From positions 1,268-65,267 of the forward strand of contig JAGBZX010000001.1 in NCBI GenBank assembly GCA_017628025.1: 64,000 bases of DNA. The letters are read 5' to 3'. Of the stretch, positions 12,474 to 34,207 are shown one piece after another; within the stretch, counting starts at the first letter, position 1, and each line of letters starts with the position of its first letter. The position numbers were made by a program, and so were the translations under genes. The notes beneath the pieces are model-generated. The model ran no database searches and was not told where the DNA came from. It saw nothing but the letters and a program-made list of their open reading frames with translations. The stretch is from Kiritimatiellia bacterium. Lineage in GTDB: Bacteria; Verrucomicrobiota; Kiritimatiellia; RFP12; UBA1067.

Positions 12474-13223
12474 TTACTTGTTGCTGGTCGGCTTGATGTA
12501 TTCGAACTTAACCGACTGAGGTATCACGAAGCTCTGACGGTTGAAAACGAGATAGAGCTTGCTATACTTAGCCTTAACAACCTTCGCCGCGCCACCCTTG
12601 TGGATGATGATGAAAGCCTTGTTACCAAATGGCGTGTCACTAGAGCCACCGTTAGCCTTACCCATCTTAATTTCTTGAGAGTCCTGAGACATATCGTGAG
12701 GGCCAGAGCTTACAGGAAGAGACTCAACGTCGGCGTTACGTGTAACGAGAGCGGGAATGACATCTTCCATTTCATCGGTAAGACCCTTTGCAACGCACCA
12801 CGCAACGTTATCACCCTTAAGAGTGCTACCACCGTTGAAAGCAGGAACGCCAGAACCAGAAAGAACTGAAATATCAACGCCGGTTACATAAGGAGCCCAC
12901 TCTTCTTTACCGTAGTTCTGAATATCGAAGAGTTCTTCGAAGTATTCTTCAGACGTGCCAGGAGTCATGCCGGCAATGTCGTCGTTGTCGTCAGACTTCT
13001 GAGAATCATCCTTTGGCCAAACGCTCGTAAGACCAGCAGCTTCACGCTCTGTGTTAGCCTGCGTAATACCAACGAAAAGATTACGACCACGCATTGAGCA
13101 CGCACTTGTATTTGCTGCAAGCATAGCTGCGGTAATTGCAGGGAAGAGAGCACCCATAAGAATACCGAGAATGCCGATAACTACGAGAAGTTCGACGAGC
13201 GTAAAACCTTTTTTATTTTTCAT
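12474..13223 (-). CDS. Prepilin-type N-terminal cleavage/methylation domain protein (pseudopilin/type IV pilin-like)
   Basis: N-terminus MKNKKGFTLVELLVVIGILGILMGALFPAI is the class III signal (G|FTLxE). The rest is acidic and unrecognised. Confidence 0.85.
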   Translation of the reverse strand: MKNKKGFTLVELLVVIGILGILMGALFPAITAAMLAANTSACSMRGRNLFVGITQANTEREAAGLTSVWPKDDSQKSDDNDDIAGMTPGTSEEYFEELFDIQNYGKEEWAPYVTGVDISVLSGSGVPAFNGGSTLKGDNVAWCVAKGLTDEMEDVIPALVTRNADVESLPVSSGPHDMSQDSQEIKMGKANGGSSDTPFGNKAFIIIHKGGAAKVVKAKYSKLYLVFNRQSFVIPQSVKFEYIKPTSNK

Positions 13224-24178: not shown

Positions 24179-25702
24179 TTAGCGCTGAAGTTTACTTAAA
24201 TCGAGCGCTAGAAGAAACTCGGGATTCGAATTTGTCTTCTTAAGTGAATTTAAAACTGATCTCATTGCCGATTCAGAACCAGCTGAAGCTAATACTCTTC
24301 TTAAGCCCCAGGTCTTTTCCAATTCAAGAGGATCTAAAAGGAGATCTTCCTTTCTAGTTCCTGATTTTTCAATATCAATCGCTGGAAATATTCTCTTATC
24401 AGCTAGAGCCCGATCAAGGACAATTTCCATATTACCAGTTCCCTTGAACTCTTCAAAGATAACTTCGTCCATGCGAGAACCAGTATCAATAAGTCCTGTT
24501 GCGATAATAGTAAGAGAGCCAGCCCCTTCTATATTACGCGCGGCACCAAAGAAACGCTTTGGTCTATGCATCGCTAAAGCATCAACACCACCTGTAAGAA
24601 TCTTACCCGAATGAGGTTGGACCGTATTGTAAGCTCTAGCCATACGAGTTATAGAGTCCATAAGAATAATAACGTCACGCCCATTTTCAACTTGACGCTT
24701 GGACATCTCAAGAACCATCTCCGTTACGTTAACATGGTGCTGCGGCTCTTCGTCAAATGTAGAGGAAAGAACCATCGCCTTCGTGTTGCGCTGCATATCG
24801 GTAACTTCTTCTGGACGCTCGTCAATAAGAAGAATAATAAGCATCGCTTCTGGATGATTCTCTGAAATGGCATTTGCCATCTTCTGCAGAAGAACAGTTT
24901 TACCTACGCGAGGAGGAGCGATAATTAAGCCGCGCTGGCCAAACCCGATAGGCGAAAACAAATCAATTACTCTAGTTGAATATTCTTTAGGATTCGTCTC
25001 AAGAATAATTCGTCGCGTTGGAAATGTCGCTGTTAAGTTTTCGAAATGAACAACGCGCGCGGCAACAGAAGGCTCCTTGCCATTGACAGTATTAACATTG
25101 CCAAGGCAGAAAAAGCGGTCACGATCGCGAGGGTCGCGAATAGGCCCTTCAATAATGTCACCTGTTCTTAATGCATGACGACGAATTTGCTGCTGTGTTA
25201 CAAAGACATCTTCTGGACAAGCTAAAAAATTATTCTTAGCAGACCTAAGAAAACCATGACCCTCTCGAACAATCTCTAAGCAACCAGACGCGAGAACCGC
25301 GCCACCTTTTGAAAGATAATGACGGATGGCAGCAAAAATAAGCTCGTGCTTTCTATATGTGCCCAATTCTTCTGGGTCAGCCCCAGGCATCATACGTTCA
25401 ACAACTAAATGAGCACCCCATGTTTGAATATCTGCCAAGCGATACTCCGGCAATGACGCGTCACGATTTGGATTAACCTGAACTTCAGATTCTCGCTCTT
25501 TTTGTTCTTGTGGCAGTGGAGCATTTAAAAGTGGATTAACACTTTCTTCTCCATTAGCTCCTCTTATTGGAGAATTATTTTGCTTTGGCGCAGGATTATG
25601 ATTATGCGGTTTCTTAAAAAACTTCTTCTGAACAGGCATCTTTTTATTCGAAGTTGATGCCGGCTTTACAGATTGTGCGAAGACGTCAAATTCATCAGCC
25701 AT
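24179..25702 (-). CDS. rho: Transcription termination factor Rho with N-terminal low-complexity extension
   Basis: Walker A PPRVGKTVLLQ and Q/R-loop regions. The first ~85 aa are K/N/P/Q-rich. ATG 25702 (AAGGAAA upstream) overlaps the coaE 3' end by 37 nt. Confidence 0.94.
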   Translation of the reverse strand: MADEFDVFAQSVKPASTSNKKMPVQKKFFKKPHNHNPAPKQNNSPIRGANGEESVNPLLNAPLPQEQKERESEVQVNPNRDASLPEYRLADIQTWGAHLVVERMMPGADPEELGTYRKHELIFAAIRHYLSKGGAVLASGCLEIVREGHGFLRSAKNNFLACPEDVFVTQQQIRRHALRTGDIIEGPIRDPRDRDRFFCLGNVNTVNGKEPSVAARVVHFENLTATFPTRRIILETNPKEYSTRVIDLFSPIGFGQRGLIIAPPRVGKTVLLQKMANAISENHPEAMLIILLIDERPEEVTDMQRNTKAMVLSSTFDEEPQHHVNVTEMVLEMSKRQVENGRDVIILMDSITRMARAYNTVQPHSGKILTGGVDALAMHRPKRFFGAARNIEGAGSLTIIATGLIDTGSRMDEVIFEEFKGTGNMEIVLDRALADKRIFPAIDIEKSGTRKEDLLLDPLELEKTWGLRRVLASAGSESAMRSVLNSLKKTNSNPEFLLALDLSKLQR

Positions 25703-26205
25703 AATAGGAATTTCCTTGTTTCTTTTTCAAGTTCTTCTGGGGTTGTATCATTGCGGATAACATAATCAGCTAACTTTGCTTTCTTTTCAACTGGCCATTG
25801 GGCAGCCAAACGAGCAAGCGCCTCTTCTTCTGAGTATCCGCGATTTTTCATCATGCGCGCTATTTGATTTTCACGCGTTGATGAGATGCAGCATATTATA
25901 TCAAAATTACCGTTCCAATTCACCTCAAATAATAACGGAACTATAGCAATTCTTAATACCCCATTAGGAGCATGGCTTAGAAACTCATCTATCCTTGCTT
26001 TTACAATGGGGTGTACGCGCGCTTCTAGCTGCTTGCGCTTTCTCTCGTCTTGGAAAATCTCTCTTGCGATTCTCTTACGTTCCTCTTCAGGTATAATCTC
26101 ATGAACTATATTATCGGCGTCGAGAGTCTCGACGCCGTTTAATTCAAGATACCTTGAGAAGAGAGATTTCCCGCAGGCGATACCGCCCGTCACAACTACT
26201 CTCAT
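25666..26205 (-). CDS. coaE: Dephospho-CoA kinase
   Basis: P-loop VVVTGGIACGKS and overall CoaE length and layout. Confidence 0.88.
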   Translation of the reverse strand: MRVVVTGGIACGKSLFSRYLELNGVETLDADNIVHEIIPEEERKRIAREIFQDERKRKQLEARVHPIVKARIDEFLSHAPNGVLRIAIVPLLFEVNWNGNFDIICCISSTRENQIARMMKNRGYSEEEALARLAAQWPVEKKAKLADYVIRNDTTPEELEKETRKFLLWLMNLTSSHNL

Positions 26206-26238: not shown

Positions 26239-29200
26239 TTACTCTACTTCAGCGGAGAGCTCAGGCGCTGCTTTTACTTCAGCGTTAGTTTTATCTTCTG
26301 CGTTAATTTCAACTTCGCGGCCACGTGTATCAACAAGGCGCGTAGTTACGAAAATAAGAAGGTTACGCTTAGAGGTTAATTCAGAGTGGCTACGGAAGAA
26401 CCTACCAATAATCGGAATATCGCCTAAGAATGGAATCTTATCGTCCATCGCCTTACGAGCCTCGGTAATAAGACCACCCATGACAATCGTGGCACCAGGA
26501 TATACAGATACCTTAGTATTAATCTGACGCGTATGGAAGAAGGGCTGTTCCATCGGCACGTCATAGTACGTCATGTTGCCATCGGTATTGCTGAGACTCT
26601 GCATAGCAGCAGTAGCAGAATCCGTAGCCTGCTGTGCCATTGATTGCTTAAGATCAGGACTAATAGCAGAACCAAGAACACTAAAGATTGAGGCCAAGCC
26701 ACCGAAGATTTCACCAAGACCCTGGAAACTCGTAAGTGAGCTGTTGCCAGAGTAAGGTATCTTCATACCGTAGTTCTTCCATGTTGGCTCGTCAACAACT
26801 TGAGTATCAAGTTCAAGGTCAATAAGGTTGCCGTCATCTGTAAGAGTTGGCGTAACATCTAGGATAACACCAACCTCACGAGTCGAGAAGCTCTGTGGTT
26901 CAACGATCGCCAAGACTGACGAATTACCTGAAGAACTACTACCATAACCGCTAGAGCCAGATGAAGAGCTAGAAAGCTGCACATCGTAGTCAGTTGGGTA
27001 GATATATTCAGTAACGACCTTGATAATAGCCTCTTCGCCAGGGCGAGTTAAAACCTTTGGTGAGGAGAGTAGGTCAGTATCGCTACGCTGTGAAAGCATA
27101 TGAAGAATCATAGATACGTCAGCGCTGCCGAGGAAGGCATTAACACGCATGAACTGGTCGTTGTTGGAATTCGACTGACCAGAAATGTGATTGCCAACAG
27201 TTGAAAGATAACGGTTGCCGTTAGAGTAATCAGTGCCATTGATGGCGTTAATGCCCATATTGCGACCGCCGCCTTCACCAGTAGTCCACCTGTTACCGGC
27301 AAACTGACCGTTGTAAATCGTAGAATTGTTATTAATTGTCGTCGTATTCTGACCATCAAACTTTGTAAGCGTGCTACCATTTAACGTAGTCTGACCTGTC
27401 GTCTCGCTCTGAGTAAGCTGCGTTGAGCTCGTTCTTTCGCCCCAAGCACCATTCTGAAGACCTAAAATACGTCCGAGTTTACGGTTAACACCGAGCGTAT
27501 AGTCAGAATTTAACAACCATTCAAAGCCAAGCGAATTAAGGTCATCCTGGCAGACTTCAACAAAGCGAGTCTCAATTTCGATAAGGCGCTGGTCAACATT
27601 GAGTTCATTAAGCGCATCTTCGAAATCAACGAGGTTGTCGCGAGTATTCTTAACGCGAAGTTTACCGAGCGTCTTGAGATAGAAAATCGAGCTGCCTTCT
27701 GGCCAATCAACACCCATCATACGGAAGAATTCTTTCCAGTCACGCTCTTGATTTTCTTCGCCTTCGTCGTTCTTCTTAGTACCGCCGCCAAACGCGCCAG
27801 CCGCCTGCATTTCGCGCATTTCGCTAGCTGCGTTGCCCATCTTATCAAGGAAGGACGCCAAAACTGGATAACTACGAGTTACCATCTCGTCACTTGTCAT
27901 GCTCTTCTCCATAACTGTAACGATGGAACCCTGAACCTTGAACTTGTAGCCAACAGATTCGCAAACAAGTTTCAAAGCTTCGTAGAACGAAATATTATTA
28001 ACTGCGATATTAGGAATTACTGGCAAGCCTTGCGCCTGAGCAGTTTCCTGTGTATCGTTACCCTCGTCAGAGAAGTCATCGCTACCACCATCGTCTGTAG
28101 CTGTTTGTGCAAACATCTGCTTAGGTGTACGAAGAATCATACCAAAGCCGCGCTTTTCAATCGGGATCTCGGGGTTATCGTAGTCACGAGCAGCATCACG
28201 GAAGAAGTCAACGGCGTCACTGATTGTTGCCGGTGGCTTAAACTCAACAGTAGGAAGAATCATATCCTGCATGCGCTTGGTAAGCACCTGCTCTGGAGAG
28301 CGCTCATCGTCTGCGCCGAGGATTTTCTTAATTGTCTTAGACTCGACCTCTTCAAGCTGACGAGCATTAGGAGCATACACTGGACGCCACTTTTCATCAA
28401 CGTCATCAATCATGCCCTTACGAGTTATTTCGCGCTCTTTCTTAAGAATAACGCCACGCTTTTTAAGGATAGACTGTCTAACAGCGAGAGCTTCTTTGTT
28501 ATAAGGATCAGCCTTTAAGACGATTTCACACTCAACAAGAGCCTTTTCAATTTCGTAAGTTGCCAAAAACTGTCTAGCTCTACGCAAATGTGCACGTTGT
28601 TCATCGCGCATCTTCTTGTAATCGTCATCATTCTGACGGTGCTTAATTTCAGAAATATCTGTCTTATATGCGTCAGGATCATCTGCGTTAAGCCATACTT
28701 CGAGCTGACGGCGAGCCTTGGGGTGGCGATAATCAACAGCCTTCTCCATAAGCTTAATCGCCTTCTCGCGACGACCAACTCTATCTTCTTCTATAGCATA
28801 ACGGAAAAGACCCTCTGCGATACCTTGGTCGGCCTCGGTGAGGAAGCTCTTCATACGTGGAGAATCGTTGAGGAACTGCTGCGCGTTTACATAGTGGCGA
28901 ATTGCATCAGCATACTGTTCCTTGAACATCGCCTGACGAGCTGCTTCAACCTCTCTTTTGGCCTGGGCGTCGAAAGCATCACGGCGCTGTTTTTCGGTCT
29001 CGTAAATATTGCGGAGAAGTTCTGCGTCAGCACCGCCATCGACAATTTGAACTGAGGAGCTAACTGGAGCAGCTTGAGAGGCTACACTTACTGGAGATTT
29101 AGGTTCTTTAGCGGCAACTTGAGGTGCGGCAACTTTTTCTTCAGGTTCTGCTTTAACTTGTTCGCCTTCATTTTTAAGCTCATCAAGTAATGAAATTACA

Positions 29201-29628
29201 GCCTCTGCGCTATTAGCTTCAGCTTTTACCTCAGTAGCAGCAACCTCTTCTACTTTAGGAGCAGGCTCTTCAGAAGCTTGAACTGCTTGAGTAGCAACGG
29301 CTTCAGGCGCCTTCTCAACTAAAGGCTCGGAAGCTACTGCTTCTTGAGCAGGAACTTCTTCTACCTTCTGTGCGACTTGAGTTTCTGCAGGAGCAGCAAC
29401 TTGCTCAACAGCAACTTCTTGAGCAGGAGCCTCTGCCTGAGGCTTAGCAGCTGTCTCCTCCGCAACTTGTGCGGCAGGCTGAGGCGCAGCTTCTTGCGCC
29501 TTTTCTGCAGGCTTGCCCTCTAAATCTTTAAGTAAATCGTCAAGGTCATCTTGAGCGAAAATACAATGCGTAACTACCAAGCCGAACGCGGCTGCGGCAA
29601 CTGCACTTATGTTCCTAAGGTTTGTCAT
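26239..29628 (-). CDS. Outer-membrane secretin (PilQ/GspD family), unusually long
   Basis: C-terminal secretin signature IPFLGDIPIIGRFFRSHSELTSKRNLLIFVTTRLV. Signal peptide from ATG 29628 (MTNLRNISAVAAAAFGLVVTHCIFA); the track start is GTG 29637. An A/E/P/Q/V-rich ~160-aa N-terminal region is followed by TPR-like helices and N/T/G/S-rich insertions. Confidence 0.9.
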   Translation of the reverse strand: MTNLRNISAVAAAAFGLVVTHCIFAQDDLDDLLKDLEGKPAEKAQEAAPQPAAQVAEETAAKPQAEAPAQEVAVEQVAAPAETQVAQKVEEVPAQEAVASEPLVEKAPEAVATQAVQASEEPAPKVEEVAATEVKAEANSAEAVISLLDELKNEGEQVKAEPEEKVAAPQVAAKEPKSPVSVASQAAPVSSSVQIVDGGADAELLRNIYETEKQRRDAFDAQAKREVEAARQAMFKEQYADAIRHYVNAQQFLNDSPRMKSFLTEADQGIAEGLFRYAIEEDRVGRREKAIKLMEKAVDYRHPKARRQLEVWLNADDPDAYKTDISEIKHRQNDDDYKKMRDEQRAHLRRARQFLATYEIEKALVECEIVLKADPYNKEALAVRQSILKKRGVILKKEREITRKGMIDDVDEKWRPVYAPNARQLEEVESKTIKKILGADDERSPEQVLTKRMQDMILPTVEFKPPATISDAVDFFRDAARDYDNPEIPIEKRGFGMILRTPKQMFAQTATDDGGSDDFSDEGNDTQETAQAQGLPVIPNIAVNNISFYEALKLVCESVGYKFKVQGSIVTVMEKSMTSDEMVTRSYPVLASFLDKMGNAASEMREMQAAGAFGGGTKKNDEGEENQERDWKEFFRMMGVDWPEGSSIFYLKTLGKLRVKNTRDNLVDFEDALNELNVDQRLIEIETRFVEVCQDDLNSLGFEWLLNSDYTLGVNRKLGRILGLQNGAWGERTSSTQLTQSETTGQTTLNGSTLTKFDGQNTTTINNNSTIYNGQFAGNRWTTGEGGGRNMGINAINGTDYSNGNRYLSTVGNHISGQSNSNNDQFMRVNAFLGSADVSMILHMLSQRSDTDLLSSPKVLTRPGEEAIIKVVTEYIYPTDYDVQLSSSSSGSSGYGSSSSGNSSVLAIVEPQSFSTREVGVILDVTPTLTDDGNLIDLELDTQVVDEPTWKNYGMKIPYSGNSSLTSFQGLGEIFGGLASIFSVLGSAISPDLKQSMAQQATDSATAAMQSLSNTDGNMTYYDVPMEQPFFHTRQINTKVSVYPGATIVMGGLITEARKAMDDKIPFLGDIPIIGRFFRSHSELTSKRNLLIFVTTRLVDTRGREVEINAEDKTNAEVKAAPELSAEVE

Positions 29629-29657
29629 ACGATACACTTCTCCAATAAGATTTTGTT

Positions 29658-29686
29658 ATTATACTATTATTTCCCTCAAGTTTCAA
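29658..29686 (-). promoter_or_regulatory. Internal sigma70-type promoter in front of the secretin gene
   Basis: Minus strand TTGAAA (29686..29681, overlapping the upstream stop codon), 17-nt spacer, TATAAT (29663..29658), 29 nt before ATG 29628. Confidence 0.5.
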
Positions 29687-30770
29687 GTGTCTTTAATGTT
29701 TTAACCTCTTTGGTTAGCACATCCTCAAGCTCTACAATAGCCTCTTTTGAAGCCCTTTTTACAGCTTTGATTCTATATTTTGCACCATTAAGATTTATTA
29801 TATCTCCTGGCACAACAATAAACTCTTTTATCCCTCGCCTATCATAAACGAGTTTCGCCTGCACATCAACGGGCTTCTTCTTCTCGCCAACACGAAGAAC
29901 AATTATGCGTTTATCAGCGATTCTTTCGATAGTTGTTTCGGAAATATCGATCTCGCGTTCCATCTTATTACCACCTTTAATGGTGCGTCTTTCGCTCTTC
30001 TTTTCGTAGCTCTTAACGATAAAGCCTGTTTTGCCAATTTCTTGATCCTGAAGTACTTTATACTCCAAACCCTTCTGGCCATACGCGCCCTTCTTTGATG
30101 GATCACGGAAGTAGAATCTATACTTGCCGCCAGGGATTGGTAGAACCTTCTCGAAATAAAACGGCAGAACCGTCTCTCTAAGAGGAGATTCAAGCCTGAG
30201 CGAATCGAGATAGTCTGGATGAGACAACTTGCCGGAAGGATCAGTCTTTGCAAGAAACTCCTCATAATTTGAAAAGCCGTCACCATCTAAATCGAGATCT
30301 CGGTCATCGAGATTAGGATTGAGCGAGTGCTTCTTTTCATAATCATCTGTCATGCCGTCGTTATCAGTATCAGAGGGCGCGGCAACAACTTTGGGCTGCT
30401 CTTTACCGCAAAACGAACAGATGTCACTACCTGGGACTATCGGCTTTTGGCAAAGCTCGCAATAGACTCTGGCTGCGGAGACGAGGTAGCTGCCGCGCTG
30501 GTCGTCAACCTCTGTAAGTTTCTGAGGAGAAACAAAGTTCTTGACTGCGCGCGTGTAAGGCTGCATATCAAGCGCTTTCACCCCTGTCTTGGTTTTAGCG
30601 CGGATTGTATCAAGGCGACGAAGCGTAGAAGCGGCTTCCTCATCAGGATTCTTATCTACACTTGAAATATAAAACACTAAAGCACCCGCAACCAGAGCAA
30701 ACGCTCCAGCGGCAACAAGCCAGTGCCACTGCTTTGAAACAAAACTTTCTGAAGCACCACGGTTTATCAT
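29676..30770 (-). CDS. Membrane-anchored zinc-ribbon / TSP3-motif protein of the secretin cluster (hypothetical; Amuc_1099 position)
   Basis: TM helix WHWLVAAGAFALVAGALVFYISS. Zn ribbon CELCQKPIVPGSDICSFCG. Calcium-type motifs DTDNDGMTDDYE and DLDGDGFSNYEEFL. ATG shares a base with the upstream stop (TAATG). Confidence 0.7.
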   Translation of the reverse strand: MINRGASESFVSKQWHWLVAAGAFALVAGALVFYISSVDKNPDEEAASTLRRLDTIRAKTKTGVKALDMQPYTRAVKNFVSPQKLTEVDDQRGSYLVSAARVYCELCQKPIVPGSDICSFCGKEQPKVVAAPSDTDNDGMTDDYEKKHSLNPNLDDRDLDLDGDGFSNYEEFLAKTDPSGKLSHPDYLDSLRLESPLRETVLPFYFEKVLPIPGGKYRFYFRDPSKKGAYGQKGLEYKVLQDQEIGKTGFIVKSYEKKSERRTIKGGNKMEREIDISETTIERIADKRIIVLRVGEKKKPVDVQAKLVYDRRGIKEFIVVPGDIINLNGAKYRIKAVKRASKEAIVELEDVLTKEVKTLKTLET

Positions 30771-31801
30771 TACTCAACCTCCTGCTTTTCTTCGCTTAAT
30801 TCAGCAGCCTTTGGAGCGCCTGCAGTACCAAAATCACACGTTACTAGCGTAAGTTTAACTGTAAATGGCGTCTCTGTGCGAGGCTCGATAACAAAGCCTT
30901 TTTTCTTTATGGGAGTTGCACCCTCGTTAACAGCTTCTGCCTCAACTGCCTGACGGCGGCCACGTCTTGATTTGCGAGCCCCCTTACCGTCTGCTGGCTT
31001 AGCGCTGTCACCTGCGATGGCAGCCGCGATTAAATCTGTCTGCCTAGCAAACTCTAGGCTATCAACTATTACAAATCTCTTTGACGCTTGGAGTTCGTTA
31101 AGAATCTTAATTAGTGAGTTTGGCTTTGCAGTAAGCTCAATCATATATTTCTCTTCTACACAAAGAGGAACTTCTTGAACGCTCTTGTCCTTGCCACGAG
31201 CCTGACGACGAGGCTGCTCGTCCTGAACTTGTGGGGCAGGAGCCTGACTAAGAACATCAATTCTTAAAATTTCAGAAACTTCTGCACGAGCAAAGATTCC
31301 AATGAAAAGCGTAATATCTGCCCACTGCTTTTGAAGCGCGGCAAGCCTCTCGCGTGGAGGGAGGTTGCCTTCTGTAATATACTGAGGGAAACCAAATCCA
31401 AATCCGCTTTTAACAAGCGCACCCTTCGCACCATCCTCTAACCCGGCAATTCCAGGAAGCTTTGAAAACTCCCTGGCATCATCTACCATCTTCTGCTTGA
31501 ACGATGCTTCATTCATAGCAGAGTTTGCAGACATATCACCGACCGAAGCCTCTGCGCGTGCCGACTCAAACCAATTTGATAAGACAGTATAGTTTTCTTT
31601 TAACGCTTTCTCTGATTCCTGCGTAGGAGAGATTTCCGCCTTTGAGTATTTGCGGAAAGTCCCTTCAGCCATCATAAGCGACTCATCGAGCTCAGCCTTC
31701 TCGGAAAGTGCCGAAAGAACCATTACTATCGCCACCACTACGACAACAGCAACGATGCCGCCAATCGAAAGCATTATAATTTTATTTTTTGTAAATTTCA
31801 T
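30770..31801 (-). CDS. Amuc_1100-like pilus-associated membrane protein (PilO-position)
   Basis: N-terminal TM (IIMLSIGGIVAVVVVVAIVMVLSAL). Strings SEKAELDESL...KAEISPTQESEKALKEN, RFVIVDSLEFARQ and FTVKLTLVTCDF resemble my recollection of A. muciniphila Amuc_1100. It sits between a PilM-like gene and the secretin. Confidence 0.5.
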   Translation of the reverse strand: MKFTKNKIIMLSIGGIVAVVVVVAIVMVLSALSEKAELDESLMMAEGTFRKYSKAEISPTQESEKALKENYTVLSNWFESARAEASVGDMSANSAMNEASFKQKMVDDAREFSKLPGIAGLEDGAKGALVKSGFGFGFPQYITEGNLPPRERLAALQKQWADITLFIGIFARAEVSEILRIDVLSQAPAPQVQDEQPRRQARGKDKSVQEVPLCVEEKYMIELTAKPNSLIKILNELQASKRFVIVDSLEFARQTDLIAAAIAGDSAKPADGKGARKSRRGRRQAVEAEAVNEGATPIKKKGFVIEPRTETPFTVKLTLVTCDFGTAGAPKAAELSEEKQEVE

Positions 31802-33462
31802 TTCGACTCTCCTTCCGCGGATTTGCCGAACTCAAGAGTCACGACGAACTGCGAGATTGTATCGCCAATCATGCTCATTTCGGCTATTTTCACAGATTGA
31901 GCGACTACTTCGTTTGAGGCTTTAAGACGCTCTAAAACTATCTCGGAGGCTGTTGACTTGCCAGTGCCTTTTGTCTTATCGACTATCGCCTTCATGTCGT
32001 CTGCCCAGCCGCGCACAGTTACGCGAGCTGCTCTGCGCGTCGAAGACTTAACAGGAGACGAAGCCCATTTCTCTATCCACATACCATCAGAGAGAGCTCT
32101 TCTAAAGACTGCAATATCAGATACTGCACTTGCGCGGCGAGTAAGAAGCTCATTAAAATCTGATGCTTTCTTTGCCATCACGTCAAGTTCTTCTTTAGCC
32201 TTTGTAACTTTTAAATCTACCTTTTTGATAGTGCTAGCTCTATTTAAAACATTCTGGAGAGTAACATCGGCTACTTCCTTTGAATGATTAACTGCCATAA
32301 TGCACAACACAGATGCTGTTATAGCCAACACTCCTGCAATTGCAACAATTGGAAGTTTAGCTACATCTGCTCTAGCACTTACAAGAGAAGGTGGCAAAAG
32401 ATTAACAGTTCCAGCCTTTGAAGTTTGCGCTTTAATAGCTAGACCAGTTACTGGACCTAACTGCAATGCGTCAGCGGCAAGCTGATCTTCGTCTGCATTA
32501 GTTGGCGACTGAACGATACTAAATGGATTAAAGAGTTCTACTTCTATTTGAAGAGATTCCGCAAAGAACTCATCTATCTGCGGCAAAAGCGCCGTTCCAC
32601 CAGTAAGATAAAACTTAACTGGCACGCCGCCGCCTTGCTGACTACGATAGAAGTTTATTGAGCGCGAAATTTCCGCTGTAAGACGAGTTAACACAGAGCG
32701 GCAAATCTTTGAAAGTTTATCTACGCTCTCGTCTTCATCTTCAGCGACACCGCCCAAAGATACATATGCTCTCTCACGCTTAAAAGCTTCTGCCTCTTCA
32801 ATTGAACAACCAAAAGCAGAGGCTATCTCGCGTGTAATGGTGTTGCCTGCTACGGGAATTGATCTATCGTAAATCTTATCTCCCTCAGCAATAACTAGTG
32901 AAGAGGTCTTGGCGCCGATATCAAGAATAACGACACAACCTTCTTCTGACAGGCTGGCATTAACTGCATTAGTTAGAGCCAATGAAGATACTTCAACAGA
33001 TTCTGCTTGAAAACCTGCCGCATTTACCGCCGCGCAGACTGCTTCTGATAAATCAGTTTTAACTGCAACAATAATTACATTCTTATCTCCGCTAGCGCTT
33101 TCGCCAAGAACTTGATAATCGCAGACCATCTCGTCGATTGGGAAGGGAATGTTCTGCTCAATTTCGTAACGAACTAATTGATCAAAGCGATCTTGACCGC
33201 CTGTAAACGGGATAGACGCAAATTTTGTAAATGCAGCCTGTCCTGATAAGGATATTGAAACTGGCCCGGGCTTAATGCCGCGCGCTTTACACATCTCTTC
33301 AAGGACAGATGTTAGTAGAACCGCATCTTCTACCGTATCTGCCGGACCTGGCAACTGCTCAATAGCATAATTCACAAGTTGAGCGCCATTAGCGCCCACA
33401 TTGAATTCGGCGAGCTTGAGCGTCGACGCGCCGATATCAAGTATCAATTTTCTTTTAGCCAT
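31798..33462 (-). CDS. pilM: Type IV pilus assembly protein PilM fused to a PilN-like transmembrane/periplasmic region
   Basis: Start at ATG 33462 (MAKRKLILDIGASTLKLAEF), 1 nt after the upstream stop. Actin-like ATPase motifs VILDIGAKTSSLVI and FYLTGGTALLPQIDEFF. TM LPIVAIAGVLAITASVLCIMAV, then ~170 aa. Confidence 0.85.
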   Translation of the reverse strand: MAKRKLILDIGASTLKLAEFNVGANGAQLVNYAIEQLPGPADTVEDAVLLTSVLEEMCKARGIKPGPVSISLSGQAAFTKFASIPFTGGQDRFDQLVRYEIEQNIPFPIDEMVCDYQVLGESASGDKNVIIVAVKTDLSEAVCAAVNAAGFQAESVEVSSLALTNAVNASLSEEGCVVILDIGAKTSSLVIAEGDKIYDRSIPVAGNTITREIASAFGCSIEEAEAFKRERAYVSLGGVAEDEDESVDKLSKICRSVLTRLTAEISRSINFYRSQQGGGVPVKFYLTGGTALLPQIDEFFAESLQIEVELFNPFSIVQSPTNADEDQLAADALQLGPVTGLAIKAQTSKAGTVNLLPPSLVSARADVAKLPIVAIAGVLAITASVLCIMAVNHSKEVADVTLQNVLNRASTIKKVDLKVTKAKEELDVMAKKASDFNELLTRRASAVSDIAVFRRALSDGMWIEKWASSPVKSSTRRAARVTVRGWADDMKAIVDKTKGTGKSTASEIVLERLKASNEVVAQSVKIAEMSMIGDTISQFVVTLEFGKSAEGESK

Positions 33463-33463
33463 A

Positions 33464-34207
33464 TCACTGCACCACCTGCTCGTAGTCATTGGGGTTAACA
33501 AGTGCCCAGATTGTCTTGGATCTATCTAAGAGACCTTGACGTTGTTCAACGGTGCGTTCACCGTTTTCATTCTGGTGCTCCATAATGTTTTTATCATTCC
33601 AAAATGCCTCTTCAATTGATTTTGGATGTGCCTTGATGCCTTTAATTTCGCTGACAACATCACCAGCGACCATCTCGCCTTTTTGATTCGTCACAACAAT
33701 ACCGATTGCCTTTGGCTCACCAAAGCGCTCAAGGCATGCTGGTGGCAAGCAAACGGACGCTGCGTGCGTACCTCTGGGGATGTTCAAGTAAGAAACCGAA
33801 ACTGTGTAATACGAATAAGGTGCAATCTTTTGTGTATTATCTTTTTCTGTTGCACTCTTTGTCTCGAGCATCACGTGCCAAGTAAAGTTGAGCTGATCAG
33901 TCCATCTATCGAATGTCTGATACTTCGCCTCAAGAACAATCCACTTGCGAGATGATGCCTTTTGATAAACATTGTTACCGATGGATGTTGCTCCACCAAT
34001 TTGTGGAGCTGGTAACGTTGAAGCGCGTCCAGTTCTGGGGAATTGCTCAATACGAACAAGCCCAGCTTGAGGGCTTACCTGTTCGCGATAAGCTGCACCC
34101 GTACCATGGCGCCCTTTGACTTTGACGCTACGCGTCGAATTGGCATAGACATGCGCGGCCATCGCCACCGAGAGTATTATCACAATCGCTTTTTTCATAT
34201 GCTTCAT
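33464..34207 (-). CDS. Secreted protein, first gene of the secretin/PilM cluster (hypothetical; Amuc_1102 position)
   Basis: Signal peptide (M)KKAIVIILSVAMAAHVYA. ATG 34198 has better SD spacing than ATG 34207. I recognise no domain. Confidence 0.6.
   Translation of the reverse strand: MKHMKKAIVIILSVAMAAHVYANSTRSVKVKGRHGTGAAYREQVSPQAGLVRIEQFPRTGRASTLPAPQIGGATSIGNNVYQKASSRKWIVLEAKYQTFDRWTDQLNFTWHVMLETKSATEKDNTQKIAPYSYYTVSVSYLNIPRGTHAASVCLPPACLERFGEPKAIGIVVTNQKGEMVAGDVVSEIKGIKAHPKSIEEAFWNDKNIMEHQNENGERTVEQRQGLLDRSKTIWALVNPNDYEQVVQ

What the first reader, a model, noticed from the sequence alone, without database searches (positions are those of the whole stretch)
26239..34207. Orphan secretin/PilM cluster with Akkermansia Amuc_1098-1102-like organisation and no ATPase, platform or peptidase
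Seen: five coupled, codirectional genes. They are a 247-aa signal-peptide protein, a PilM-PilN fusion, a 343-aa TM protein, a 364-aa TM/Zn-ribbon/TSP3-motif protein and a 1129-aa secretin. Junctions are a 1-nt gap, an ATGA overlap, a TAATG overlap, and a 47-nt spacer with a TTGAAA-17-TATAAT promoter. No PilB/PilT/GspE ATPase, PilC/GspF platform or prepilin peptidase lies in the 64 kb. The only pilin-like gene (12474..13223) is 13 kb away. Established knowledge: the A. muciniphila locus Amuc_1102 / Amuc_1101 (PilM-like) / Amuc_1100 / Amuc_1099 / Amuc_1098 (secretin) has this order, and Amuc_1100 is a host-active outer-membrane pilus-like protein. Inference, from my recollection of the Amuc_1100 sequence: the 343-aa protein shares the N-terminal TM and several local strings. 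These are SEKAELDESL here vs SKRSELDKKI, KAEISPTQESEKALKEN vs AAEITPSRSSNEELEKE, and C-terminal FTVKLTLVTCDF vs VFVQVSLNLVHF. The cluster sits 3.4 kb downstream of the giant gene on the same strand.
Basis: partly seen in the sequence, partly recalled or inferred. Interest (0 to 1): 0.6.

Follow-up and report, generated by a model that had tools for sequence, protein, structure and literature searches.

The report
Akkermansia-type pilus scaffold operon, Kiritimatiellia
These five genes are a distant copy, in an uncultured gut Kiritimatiellia bacterium, of the well-known Akkermansia Amuc_1098-1102 (MUL2) cluster. They encode the membrane scaffold and outer-membrane pore of a type IV pilus-like machine, and its motor genes lying elsewhere in the genome is normal, so this is an ordinary member of a known kind.

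Summary
Five co-directional minus-strand genes lie at 34207..26239, with the stated junctions, and the whole 68-kb contig has no pilus ATPase, platform or prepilin peptidase.

All five proteins are remote homologues of Akkermansia Amuc_1102, 1101, 1100, 1099 and 1098, in the same order. Even the downstream coaE-rho pair is shared. Evidence comes from NCBIfam HMMs, profile-profile alignments (E 1e-9 to 1e-12) and a Foldseek hit to Amuc_1100 crystal structures (E 1e-7).

"Orphan" overstates it. The cluster is a pilM(N)-O-P-Q-type alignment and secretin operon, which usually stands apart from its motors. This 71%-complete MAG encodes seven PilB/PilT-type ATPases, five loci with platform-protein (T2SSF) matches, one prepilin peptidase, many pilins and two more secretins on other contigs. 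In some relatives a PilB or PilT gene sits directly after the secretin.

The organism is a gut or rumen Kiritimatiellia. The arrangement ackA-pta-kpsF-[module]-coaE-rho recurs in 80 related loci, and the Amuc_1101-type PilM fusion occurs in 265 of 301 sampled genomes of the phylum.

Two small additions. A TTGAA-17-TATAAT promoter in front of the secretin is positionally conserved in 59 of 71 relatives. The Amuc_1100-like protein evolves fastest, and the Amuc_1102-like protein is the most conserved of the five (about level with the secretin). Verdict: new member of a known kind, low to moderate interest.

The parts
33464..34207 (-). Amuc_1102-like (MUL2A-like) exported beta-sandwich protein, 247 aa, with a Sec-type signal peptide by inspection
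   Evidence: Profile A2 vs Amuc_1102: hhalign 81.7%, E 1e-5. A2 vs the Akkermansia-type family A6: 96.5%, E 9e-10, 123 columns. Intermediate Kiritimatiellia-class ORFs are hit by both the window and the Akkermansia query. AF2 core pLDDT about 90, beta-sandwich. 565 homologues; precomputed Pfam PF28178. Foldseek did not return 7DSZ in its top 50.
31798..33462 (-). PilM-PilN fusion (Amuc_1101-like), 554 aa: actin-like PilM domain, one TM helix, periplasmic C-terminal domain
   Evidence: Pfam PilM_2 9e-45. TIGR01175 pilM 176.5 bits, above the 133 cut-off. NCBIfam Amuc_1101_fam 6e-110, residues 17-541, below the 650 cut-off. Best solved relatives are type IVa PilM: 3jc8_M 4e-33, 2ych, 5eou. tblastn to Akkermansia Amuc_1101 5e-52. 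The PilN part is inferred from topology only.
30770..31801 (-). Amuc_1100-like, PilO-like bitopic protein, 343 aa: N-terminal TM, helical region, ferredoxin-like core, disordered K/R-rich loop
   Evidence: NCBIfam Amuc_1100_fam 3.6e-12, below cut-off. AF2 model pLDDT 68. Foldseek top ten = Amuc_1100 (6laf, 6kny, 6lad; E 1e-7, TM up to 0.77), then PilO (3jc8_O, 2rjz; E 0.02-0.03). Profile chain A1-A5 5e-28, A5-A4 7e-32, A1-A4 1.4e-12.
29676..30770 (-). Amuc_1099-like bitopic protein, 364 aa: TM, Cys4 knuckle, two TSP3 calcium-type repeats, C-terminal beta-rich domain. It occupies the PilP/GspC position.
   Evidence: NCBIfam Amuc_1099_fam 2e-12 (47.3 bits, cut-off 50) and Pfam TSP3_bac 2e-9. Profile A3 vs Amuc_1099: 95.9%, E 6e-9, 203 columns. 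Cys4 is invariant in 29 homologues, and Akkermansia Amuc_1099 has no Cys. No PilP or GspC match was found.
29658..29686 (-). Conserved sigma-70-type promoter-like element TTGAAA-17-TATAAT. Its -35 box overlaps the last codons and stop of the 364-aa gene, and it lies just upstream of the secretin gene.
   Evidence: 11 of 12 match in the window. The same element, at the same place and with 17-nt spacing, scores at least 10 of 12 in 59 of 71 related loci, against 13 of 1460 random 100-nt windows. No comparable conserved element lies upstream of the first gene.
26239..29628 (-). Secretin (Amuc_1098-like, PilQ/GspD superfamily), 1129 aa: signal peptide, about 170-aa A/E/P/Q-rich region, TPR-like region, and a secretin domain split by an N/T/G/S-rich insert
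   Evidence: Pfam Secretin 7e-33 in two stretches. NCBIfam Amuc_1098_fam 6e-127, residues 196-1109, below the 750 cut-off. PilQ, GspD and MshL models score about equally, all below cut-off. tblastn to Akkermansia Amuc_1098 9e-65 over 947 aa.
24179..26205 (-). coaE (25666..26205) and rho (24179..25702): conserved downstream neighbours of the module, not functional parts of it
   Evidence: The same secretin-coaE-rho order is seen in Akkermansia, in related Kiritimatiellia loci and in 9 of 20 sampled genomes of the phylum (a 10th has coaE before its contig ends). It is also named in the figure legend of PMC13174399.

Best explanation
The five genes are the Kiritimatiellia version of the Akkermansia Amuc_1102-1098 (MUL2-type) locus. 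They encode the envelope-spanning alignment subcomplex and outer-membrane channel of a type IV filament machine, most likely type IVa-pilus-like. Shown: the PilM domain, the secretin, the homology of all five proteins to the Akkermansia set, and the conserved order and flank. Inferred mechanism: the PilM-PilN fusion forms the cytoplasmic and inner-membrane ring. The Amuc_1100-like protein is its PilO-type periplasmic partner, anchored in the inner membrane by its N-terminal helix. The Amuc_1099-like bitopic protein takes the PilP/GspC position and links this ring to the secretin. The Amuc_1102-like beta-sandwich is an exported accessory subunit of unknown role. The filament, its platform and its extension and retraction ATPases are supplied by genes elsewhere: PilB-PilT-PilB on contig C17, platform genes on C29 and C35, the peptidase on C23, and pilins on C16, C29 and C1. 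The first four genes are read through from the upstream kpsF-like gene or beyond. The secretin, and perhaps coaE-rho, has its own conserved sigma-70-type promoter.
For: Family and profile matches for every gene. The same order plus coaE-rho occurs in a genome whose ORF equals PDB 7DSZ Amuc_1102. The module is single copy in this genome. Motors, platforms, peptidase and pilins are encoded elsewhere. Physical linkage to T4P motors in relatives: in L052 a PilB 85% identical to this genome's C17 PilB starts 169 nt after the secretin; L129 has two ATPase genes (one PilT-sized, one 480 aa), both PilT-like by tblastn, after its secretins; L120 has a PilT-like gene. Synteny: 66 of the 80 related loci hold the Amuc_1102-like, PilM-PilN, Amuc_1099-like and secretin genes, and 18 of the 20 genomes sampled from the rest of the phylum show PilM-PilN, a gene in the Amuc_1100 position, the Amuc_1099-like gene and a secretin in that order. 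The Amuc_1101-type fusion occurs in 265 of 301 phylum genomes. The promoter before the secretin is conserved. Literature: MUL2 is needed for mucin acquisition, and Amuc_1100 resembles PilO/PilN (bioRxiv 10.64898/2025.12.30.696933). MUL2 synteny across Akkermansiaceae includes the secretin, dephospho-CoA kinase and rho (PMC13174399). [quoted passage not shown]
Against: All four NCBIfam scores are far below or just below the equivalog cut-offs, so function cannot be transferred automatically. The PilN, PilO and PilP assignments rest on topology, position and weak structural similarity (PilO Foldseek E 0.02), and no Pfam PilN, PilO or PilP model matches. Foldseek with the Amuc_1102-like model did not return 7DSZ among its top 50. 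Which of the genome's several ATPase, platform and pilin sets serves this module is unknown. The MAG is only 71% complete. The literature places Amuc_1100 at the outer surface, which does not fit an inner-membrane PilO-like role.
Confidence: 0.85

Rival explanations
1. The module is the GspL-GspM-GspC-GspD part of a type II secretion system. It would export folded enzymes such as glycoside hydrolases and sulfatases through the secretin, using the pseudopilin and platform cluster on contig C29 and/or C16.
For: The architecture and order mirror Xps-type L-M-N(C)-D (established knowledge). A fused cytoplasmic actin-like domain plus TM plus periplasmic domain is how GspL is built. The 343-aa protein gives weak hits to T2SSM_b (E 0.018) and GspM_XpsM (E 0.012) at residues 221-256. 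C29 and C16 carry GspG-K-like pseudopilin runs and a platform gene without their own secretin. The GspD model scores as well as the PilQ model.
Against: The cytoplasmic domain matches PilM above the curated cut-off, and its best solved relatives are type IVa PilM; no GspL hit appears. PilT-type retraction ATPases, absent from T2SS, sit next to the module in some relatives. The GspM hits are below threshold.
Confidence: 0.2
2. The module is an inward-acting uptake gate. A retractile pilus-like fibre would pull glycans (mucin or other polysaccharides) or DNA through the secretin into the periplasm, as proposed for MUL2-dependent mucin acquisition in Akkermansia.
For: MUL2 is reported as important for mucin acquisition. 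PilT-type ATPases are present in the genome and adjacent to the module in some relatives. The module is embedded among housekeeping genes and near-universal in the phylum.
Against: Nothing in the sequence shows directionality. No glycan-binding domain was detected in the five proteins. The Akkermansia papers with the primary data were not readable here. This is a functional sub-case of the best explanation rather than an exclusive alternative.
Confidence: 0.3
3. The cluster is a degenerate or non-functional remnant of a pilus system that has lost its motors.
For: No ATPase, platform or peptidase lies on the 68-kb contig.
Against: All five frames are intact. The same five genes are kept in order in 66 of 80 relatives, with 31-57% median identity and a conserved promoter. 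Motors exist elsewhere in the genome.
Confidence: 0.02

Closest known systems
Akkermansia muciniphila Amuc_1098-Amuc_1102 cluster (MUL2 locus; NCBIfam Amuc_1098_fam, Amuc_1099_fam, Amuc_1100_fam, Amuc_1101_fam; PDB 6KNY/6LAD/6LAF Amuc_1100, 7DSZ Amuc_1102)
   Same: It has the same five genes in the same order, the same PilM-PilN fusion, the same bitopic topology of the two middle proteins, a TSP3-type motif in the fourth protein, and the same downstream coaE-rho.
   Different: Pairwise identity is very low: PilM-PilN 29% and secretin 24%, while the Amuc_1100- and Amuc_1102-like proteins are undetectable by BLAST. All NCBIfam scores are below the equivalog cut-offs. The secretin here is about 220 aa longer, with a low-complexity N-terminal region and an insert in the secretin domain. 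The Amuc_1099-like protein has an extra TSP3 repeat and an invariant Cys4 motif that Akkermansia lacks. The Amuc_1100-like protein has a disordered K/R-rich loop. The host is a different class, Kiritimatiellia. Host-active (TLR2) properties are unknown here.
Type IVa pilus PilM-PilN-PilO-PilP-PilQ operon (Pseudomonas aeruginosa, Myxococcus xanthus; PDB 3JC8)
   Same: It is a five-gene alignment-plus-secretin operon that stands apart from pilB/pilC/pilD/pilT and the pilins. The PilM domain is clearly homologous. It has a PilO-like fold in third position and the secretin last.
   Different: PilM and PilN are fused. The PilP position is filled by a TM-anchored TSP3/Cys4 protein with no detectable PilP homology. 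No AMIN domains were detected in the secretin. An extra exported beta-sandwich gene comes first. The PilQ subfamily model scores below cut-off.
Type II secretion GspL-GspM-GspC-GspD (Xps-type order L-M-N-D)
   Same: The fused actin-like/TM/periplasmic architecture resembles GspL. Two bitopic partners follow, then the secretin. There are weak GspM-model hits.
   Different: No GspL, GspC or above-threshold GspM or GspD match was found. PilT-type ATPases are linked to the module in relatives.

Membership tests
Akkermansia Amuc_1098-1102 / MUL2-type locus | Gene order 1102-1101-1100-1099-1098 on one strand | tested here: met
   Window ORFs compared with Akkermansia genome region L113.
Akkermansia Amuc_1098-1102 / MUL2-type locus | Homology of each of the five proteins to its Akkermansia counterpart | tested here: met
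   1101: 6e-110 HMM, 5e-52 tblastn. 1098: 6e-127 HMM, 9e-65 tblastn. 1099: hhalign 95.9%, E 6e-9. 1100: HMM 3.6e-12, Foldseek 1e-7, hhalign 97.7%, E 1.4e-12. 1102: hhalign 96.5%, E 9e-10.
Akkermansia Amuc_1098-1102 / MUL2-type locus | Scores above NCBIfam's curated equivalog cut-offs (same function by annotation rules) | tested here: not met
   368.8 vs 650; 46.3 vs 180; 47.3 vs 50; 424.8 vs 750. There is no NCBIfam hit for the 247-aa protein.
Akkermansia Amuc_1098-1102 / MUL2-type locus | Structure of the first protein resembles Amuc_1102 (7DSZ) | tested here: inconclusive
   The AF2 model is a beta-sandwich, but Foldseek's top 50 PDB hits are generic Ig-like domains without 7DSZ.
Akkermansia Amuc_1098-1102 / MUL2-type locus | Role in mucin acquisition; TLR2 activation by the Amuc_1100 protein | not testable with these tools
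   These are experimental properties, known only for Akkermansia.
Type IVa pilus PilMNOPQ alignment/secretin subcomplex | PilM actin-like domain | tested here: met
   PF11104 9e-45; TIGR01175 176.5 bits, above 133; 3jc8_M 4e-33.
Type IVa pilus PilMNOPQ alignment/secretin subcomplex | PilN and PilO bitopic proteins with ferredoxin-like periplasmic domains | tested here: inconclusive
   No Pfam PilN or PilO hit. PilO is the next-best fold after Amuc_1100 at E 0.02-0.03, prob 0.94. The PilN part is judged by topology only.
Type IVa pilus PilMNOPQ alignment/secretin subcomplex | PilP lipoprotein with a secretin-binding HR domain | tested here: not met
   The fourth protein has a TM anchor rather than a lipobox. 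It has no PilP or GspC match in Pfam, or in the PDB by profile.
Type IVa pilus PilMNOPQ alignment/secretin subcomplex | Secretin of the PilQ subfamily | tested here: inconclusive
   The secretin domain is met (7e-33). TIGR02515 scores 112 bits against a 284 cut-off, about equal to the GspD and MshL models.
Type IVa pilus PilMNOPQ alignment/secretin subcomplex | PilB, PilT, PilC, PilD and pilins present in the genome | tested here: met
   Seven T2SSE hits, eight T2SSF domain hits in five proteins, one A24 peptidase and seven or more pilin-motif ORFs on other contigs.
Type II secretion system (GspL-M-C-D) | GspL, GspM, GspC and GspD family matches | tested here: not met
   No T2SSL or GspC hit. 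GspM models reach only E 0.012-0.018. GspD scores 108.6 bits against a 351 cut-off.

The most novel reading that the evidence does not exclude
The Amuc/MUL2-type pilM(N)-O-P-Q module may be an ancestral, vertically inherited core envelope machine of the whole phylum Verrucomicrobiota in the broad sense, including Kiritimatiellia. It would be locked next to coaE-rho, with a dedicated conserved promoter for its secretin. In gut Kiritimatiellia it is spliced behind ackA-pta-kpsF, which would make it a constitutively expressed housekeeping gate for macromolecule (glycan) uptake rather than an adhesive pilus. On this reading, Amuc_1100-family proteins are fast-evolving inner-membrane PilO analogues, not surface pilins. 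The strongly conserved Amuc_1102-like protein, with its invariant predicted-disordered C-terminal tail, would be the key specific component.
Probability: 0.2. Interest if true: 0.55.

Novelty: new member of a known kind. Interest (0 to 1): 0.27.

Why it matters
Amuc_1100 and its neighbours are among the most studied proteins of a next-generation probiotic, yet their native role is still debated. This locus shows that the whole five-gene unit, with its coaE-rho flank, exists in a sister class at 11-30% identity. That gives a comparative frame: the Amuc_1100 family behaves like a PilO-type scaffold component and is the fastest-evolving part, while the Amuc_1102-like protein and the secretin are the most conserved of the five. 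The secretin has its own conserved promoter. Relatives with adjacent PilB or PilT genes point to the motors that drive the machine. The published survey read here (PMC13174399) reports its survey only for orders of Verrucomicrobiae and never mentions Kiritimatiellia, so this modestly widens the known distribution. It does not reveal a new kind of system.

Tried and rejected
- Direct phmmer of the 343-aa and 247-aa proteins, and hmmsearch of their family profiles, against PDB sequences found neither Amuc_1100 nor Amuc_1102. Sequence-to-sequence search is too insensitive at this distance, so profile-profile and fold comparison were needed.
- Single-sequence hhalign of A1 against Amuc_1100 was weak (8%, E 0.004). 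It became convincing only with a family profile and intermediates.
- Foldseek with the 247-aa model gave only generic Ig-like hits.
- The profile of the 364-aa family against the PDB found only calmodulin-like calcium loops, and no PilP or GspC.
- A search for a conserved promoter upstream of the first gene found nothing above background.
- Paralogues of the five genes in the genome: none, apart from a weak match (E 1e-5) of the secretin's C-terminal domain to the C43 secretin.
- Davey et al. 2023 and Hughes et al. 2025 are not held in the library.
- PF28178 and PF28028 are not in the local Pfam, so their names are unknown.
- The idea of a truly motor-less 'orphan' machine was considered and rejected, because the genome encodes the motors.

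Full report
**Observation.** The five ORFs are real and lie on the minus strand.
- 34207..33464: 247 aa, with an N-terminal signal-peptide-like sequence.
- 33462..31798: 554 aa from the ATG one base after the preceding stop.
- 31801..30770: 343 aa.
- 30770..29676: 364 aa.
- 29628..26239: 1129 aa.

The spacer and the end of the 364-aa gene carry TTGAAA-17-TATAAT at 29686..29658. This is the best sigma-70-like match in the surrounding 10 kb.

Pfam finds PilM_2 (9e-45) in the second protein, bacterial TSP3 repeats (2e-9) in the fourth and Secretin (7e-33) in the fifth.

Whole-genome searches put the window on contig C1 (68 kb) of a 1.45-Mb MAG with 45 contigs that is 71% complete. No T2SSE ATPase, T2SSF platform or A24 prepilin peptidase lies on that contig. 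The pilin-like gene at 12474..13223 has an N-terminal methylation motif (4e-10). It sits between priA and a CDP-alcohol phosphatidyltransferase gene. Every credible gene in the window is on the minus strand, so co-directionality is not specific to the cluster.

**Identity of the proteins.** NCBIfam has dedicated models for the Akkermansia cluster, and four of them are the top hits:
- Amuc_1101_fam, 6e-110
- Amuc_1100_fam, 3.6e-12
- Amuc_1099_fam, 2e-12
- Amuc_1098_fam, 6e-127

All four score below the curated equivalog cut-offs.

I then fetched the cluster from a complete 2.65-Mb genome of the same phylum. Its PilM-fusion passes the Amuc_1101 cut-off, and its upstream ORF equals PDB 7DSZ, Amuc_1102, at 4e-138. 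That genome has 238-, 612-, 317-, 337- and 907-aa genes in the same order, followed by coaE and rho, exactly as in the window.

By tblastn only the PilM-fusion (29% identity, 5e-52), the secretin (24%, 9e-65) and the TSP3 segment are detectable. The three small proteins therefore needed more sensitive tests.

*The 343-aa protein.* An AlphaFold2 model built from 12 homologues has mean pLDDT 68 and a core of about 90. Its ten best PDB matches are all Amuc_1100 (6LAF, 6KNY, 6LAD; E about 1e-7; target TM up to 0.77). PilO of M. xanthus and P. aeruginosa follow at E 0.02-0.03. Profile-profile comparison links three groups:
- the window's clade to the proteins in the same gene position in other Kiritimatiellia-class and phylum genomes (99.8%, E 5e-28);
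- those proteins to the Akkermansia-type family (99.9%, E 7e-32);
- the window's clade directly to the Akkermansia-type family (97.7%, E 1.4e-12, 298 columns).

*The 364-aa protein.* The family profile against Amuc_1099 gives 95.9%, E 6e-9 over 203 columns.

*The 247-aa protein.* The family profile against Amuc_1102 gives 81.7%, E 1e-5. Against an Akkermansia-type family profile it gives 96.5%, E 9e-10. ORFs in the same position in other Kiritimatiellia-class genomes are hit by both the window query and the Akkermansia query. Foldseek with the model of this protein returned only generic Ig-like sandwiches, so structural confirmation is lacking.

**Organism and distribution.** The 80 best genomic loci encoding the 247-aa family come almost entirely from gut and rumen MAGs. 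Most are labelled Kiritimatiellia, Kiritimatiellae, Verrucomicrobia or Lentisphaerae.

Sixty-six of the 80 loci hold the 247-aa homologue, the PilM-PilN fusion, the Amuc_1099-like gene and the secretin, and the loci share the order ackA-pta-kpsF-[module]-coaE-rho. Median identity to the window is:

| Protein | Median identity |
|---|---|
| Amuc_1102-like | 57% |
| PilM-PilN | 48% |
| Amuc_1100-like | 31% |
| Amuc_1099-like | 40% |
| Secretin | 56% |
| Rho (for comparison) | 80% |

So the Amuc_1100-like protein is the fastest-evolving part, and the Amuc_1102-like protein is the most conserved of the five, about level with the secretin.

In a sample of 301 genomes of the phylum, 265 have an Amuc_1101-type match at E below 1e-10. 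Most of these extend well beyond the 340-residue PilM domain. Twelve also have a detectable Amuc_1102-like ORF upstream. Nine have coaE and rho downstream, and a tenth has coaE before its contig ends. Several carry two tandem secretins.

A 2026 ISME J paper (PMC13174399) reports MUL2 synteny across Akkermansiaceae and Verrucomicrobiales, including the channel protein, dephospho-CoA kinase and rho. It reports its survey only for orders of Verrucomicrobiae and never mentions Kiritimatiellia. No paper in the searchable library mentions Kiritimatiell* together with Amuc_1100.

**Why 'orphan' is misleading.** The genome encodes the following elsewhere:
- seven T2SSE-family ATPases, including a PilB-PilT-PilB run on C17;
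- five proteins with platform-protein (T2SSF) domains, on C29, C35, C8, C30 and C10;
- one prepilin peptidase on C23;
- runs of pilin and pseudopilin genes on C16, C29 and C8;
- two further secretin modules, on C43 and C8.

Stand-alone pilMNOPQ operons are the rule for type IVa pili (established knowledge).

Three relatives show direct physical linkage to motors:
- In L052, a PilB gene 85% identical to this genome's C17 PilB starts 169 nt after the secretin.
- In L129, two ATPase genes (353 aa and 480 aa), both PilT-like by tblastn, follow the tandem secretins.
- In L120, a PilT-like gene follows the secretin.

The PilM domain's closest solved relatives are type IVa PilM proteins, and no GspL appears. 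I therefore read the cluster as the alignment and secretin subcomplex of a type IVa-pilus-like machine, with a type II secretion reading as the main rival. The gene order resembles XpsL-M-N-D, and there are sub-threshold GspM hits.

**Transcription.** The promoter-like element before the secretin is not a chance match. At the equivalent position, overlapping the stop of the Amuc_1099-like gene, 59 of 71 related loci have TTGAA(A/C/T)-17-TATAAT with at least 10 of 12 matches. Only 13 of 1460 random 100-nt windows of the same loci reach that score. The -10 box lies in non-coding sequence that otherwise varies.

No comparable conserved element precedes the first gene. That gene follows the kpsF-like gene by about 28 nt with only a Shine-Dalgarno sequence between them. 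The likely units are (...kpsF-)1102-like/PilM-PilN/1100-like/1099-like, and separately secretin(-coaE-rho). [quoted passage not shown]

**Lineage-specific features.**
- The secretin is about 220 aa longer than Amuc_1098. It has an A/E/P/Q-rich region after the signal peptide and an insert that splits the secretin domain.
- The Amuc_1099-like protein has two TSP3 repeats and an invariant Cys4 motif. The Cys-free Akkermansia protein lacks this motif. By topology it would be periplasmic.
- The Amuc_1100-like protein has a predicted disordered K/R-rich loop before its last strand.
- The Amuc_1102-like protein ends in a nearly invariant tail that is predicted to be disordered.

**Verdict.** The thing is a remote member of an already described and annotated kind of locus. 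Other agents of this scan have reached the same reading for similar modules in other genomes. Those notes are leads, not independent evidence, and I re-tested the claims I use.

- The primary Akkermansia genetics paper was not readable.
- The MAG is incomplete.

Noticed in passing
window 29658-29686 and the equivalent position in L021-L100: A sigma-70-type promoter (TTGAA-17-TATAAT) overlaps the stop codon of the Amuc_1099-like gene. It is conserved in position and spacing in 59 of 71 related Kiritimatiellia loci. Its -35 box is encoded by the conserved C-terminal Leu-Glu codons.
   Followed up: yes
L052 17273-18565; L129 689-3192; L120 2655-3686: In a few relatives a PilB or PilT-type ATPase gene lies directly downstream of the secretin, where this genome has coaE-rho. 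The L052 PilB is 85% identical to this genome's PilB on contig C17.
   Followed up: partly
L125, L129, L130, L133 (genomes of other families of the phylum): In these loci the module carries two tandem secretin genes instead of one.
   Followed up: no
genome contigs C8 (1-9600), C43 (9400-15100), C17 (46600-51200), C29 (50300-60600), C16 (51900-54600): A genome of roughly 2 Mb carries three secretin modules. One of them (C8) appears self-contained, with two ATPases, a platform and pilins. There are also several scattered pseudopilin, platform and ATPase clusters.
   Followed up: partly
window 33464-33540 (C-terminal about 25 residues of the 247-aa protein): The tail RQGLxDRSKTIWALVNPNDYExVVQ is almost invariant across 32 homologues, yet it is predicted to be disordered (pLDDT below 50). 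It looks like a docking peptide, and a similar LLNKDETPF...W.DRYPE motif is visible in Amuc_1102.
   Followed up: partly
window 30408-30461 (Cys104-Cys121 of the 364-aa protein): A Cys4 zinc-ribbon-like motif is invariant in Kiritimatiellia homologues and absent from the Cys-free Akkermansia Amuc_1099. By topology it would face the periplasm, where disulfides are as likely as zinc binding.
   Followed up: partly
record titles of L022, L026, L029, L030, L033, L083, L094, L100: Several public 'cleanbin' MAG records that carry this Kiritimatiellia-type locus are titled as unrelated taxa (Azospirillum, Lachnospira, Barnesiella, Gemmiger, Faecalibacterium, Alistipes, a Methanomethylophilaceae archaeon). 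This suggests mislabelled or mis-binned records.
   Followed up: no
window 1-64000: All plausible genes of the 64-kb window are on the minus strand, and GC skew is negative throughout. The module sits inside a long one-directional run of housekeeping genes (infB, priA, recA, rho, coaE, pta, ackA).
   Followed up: no
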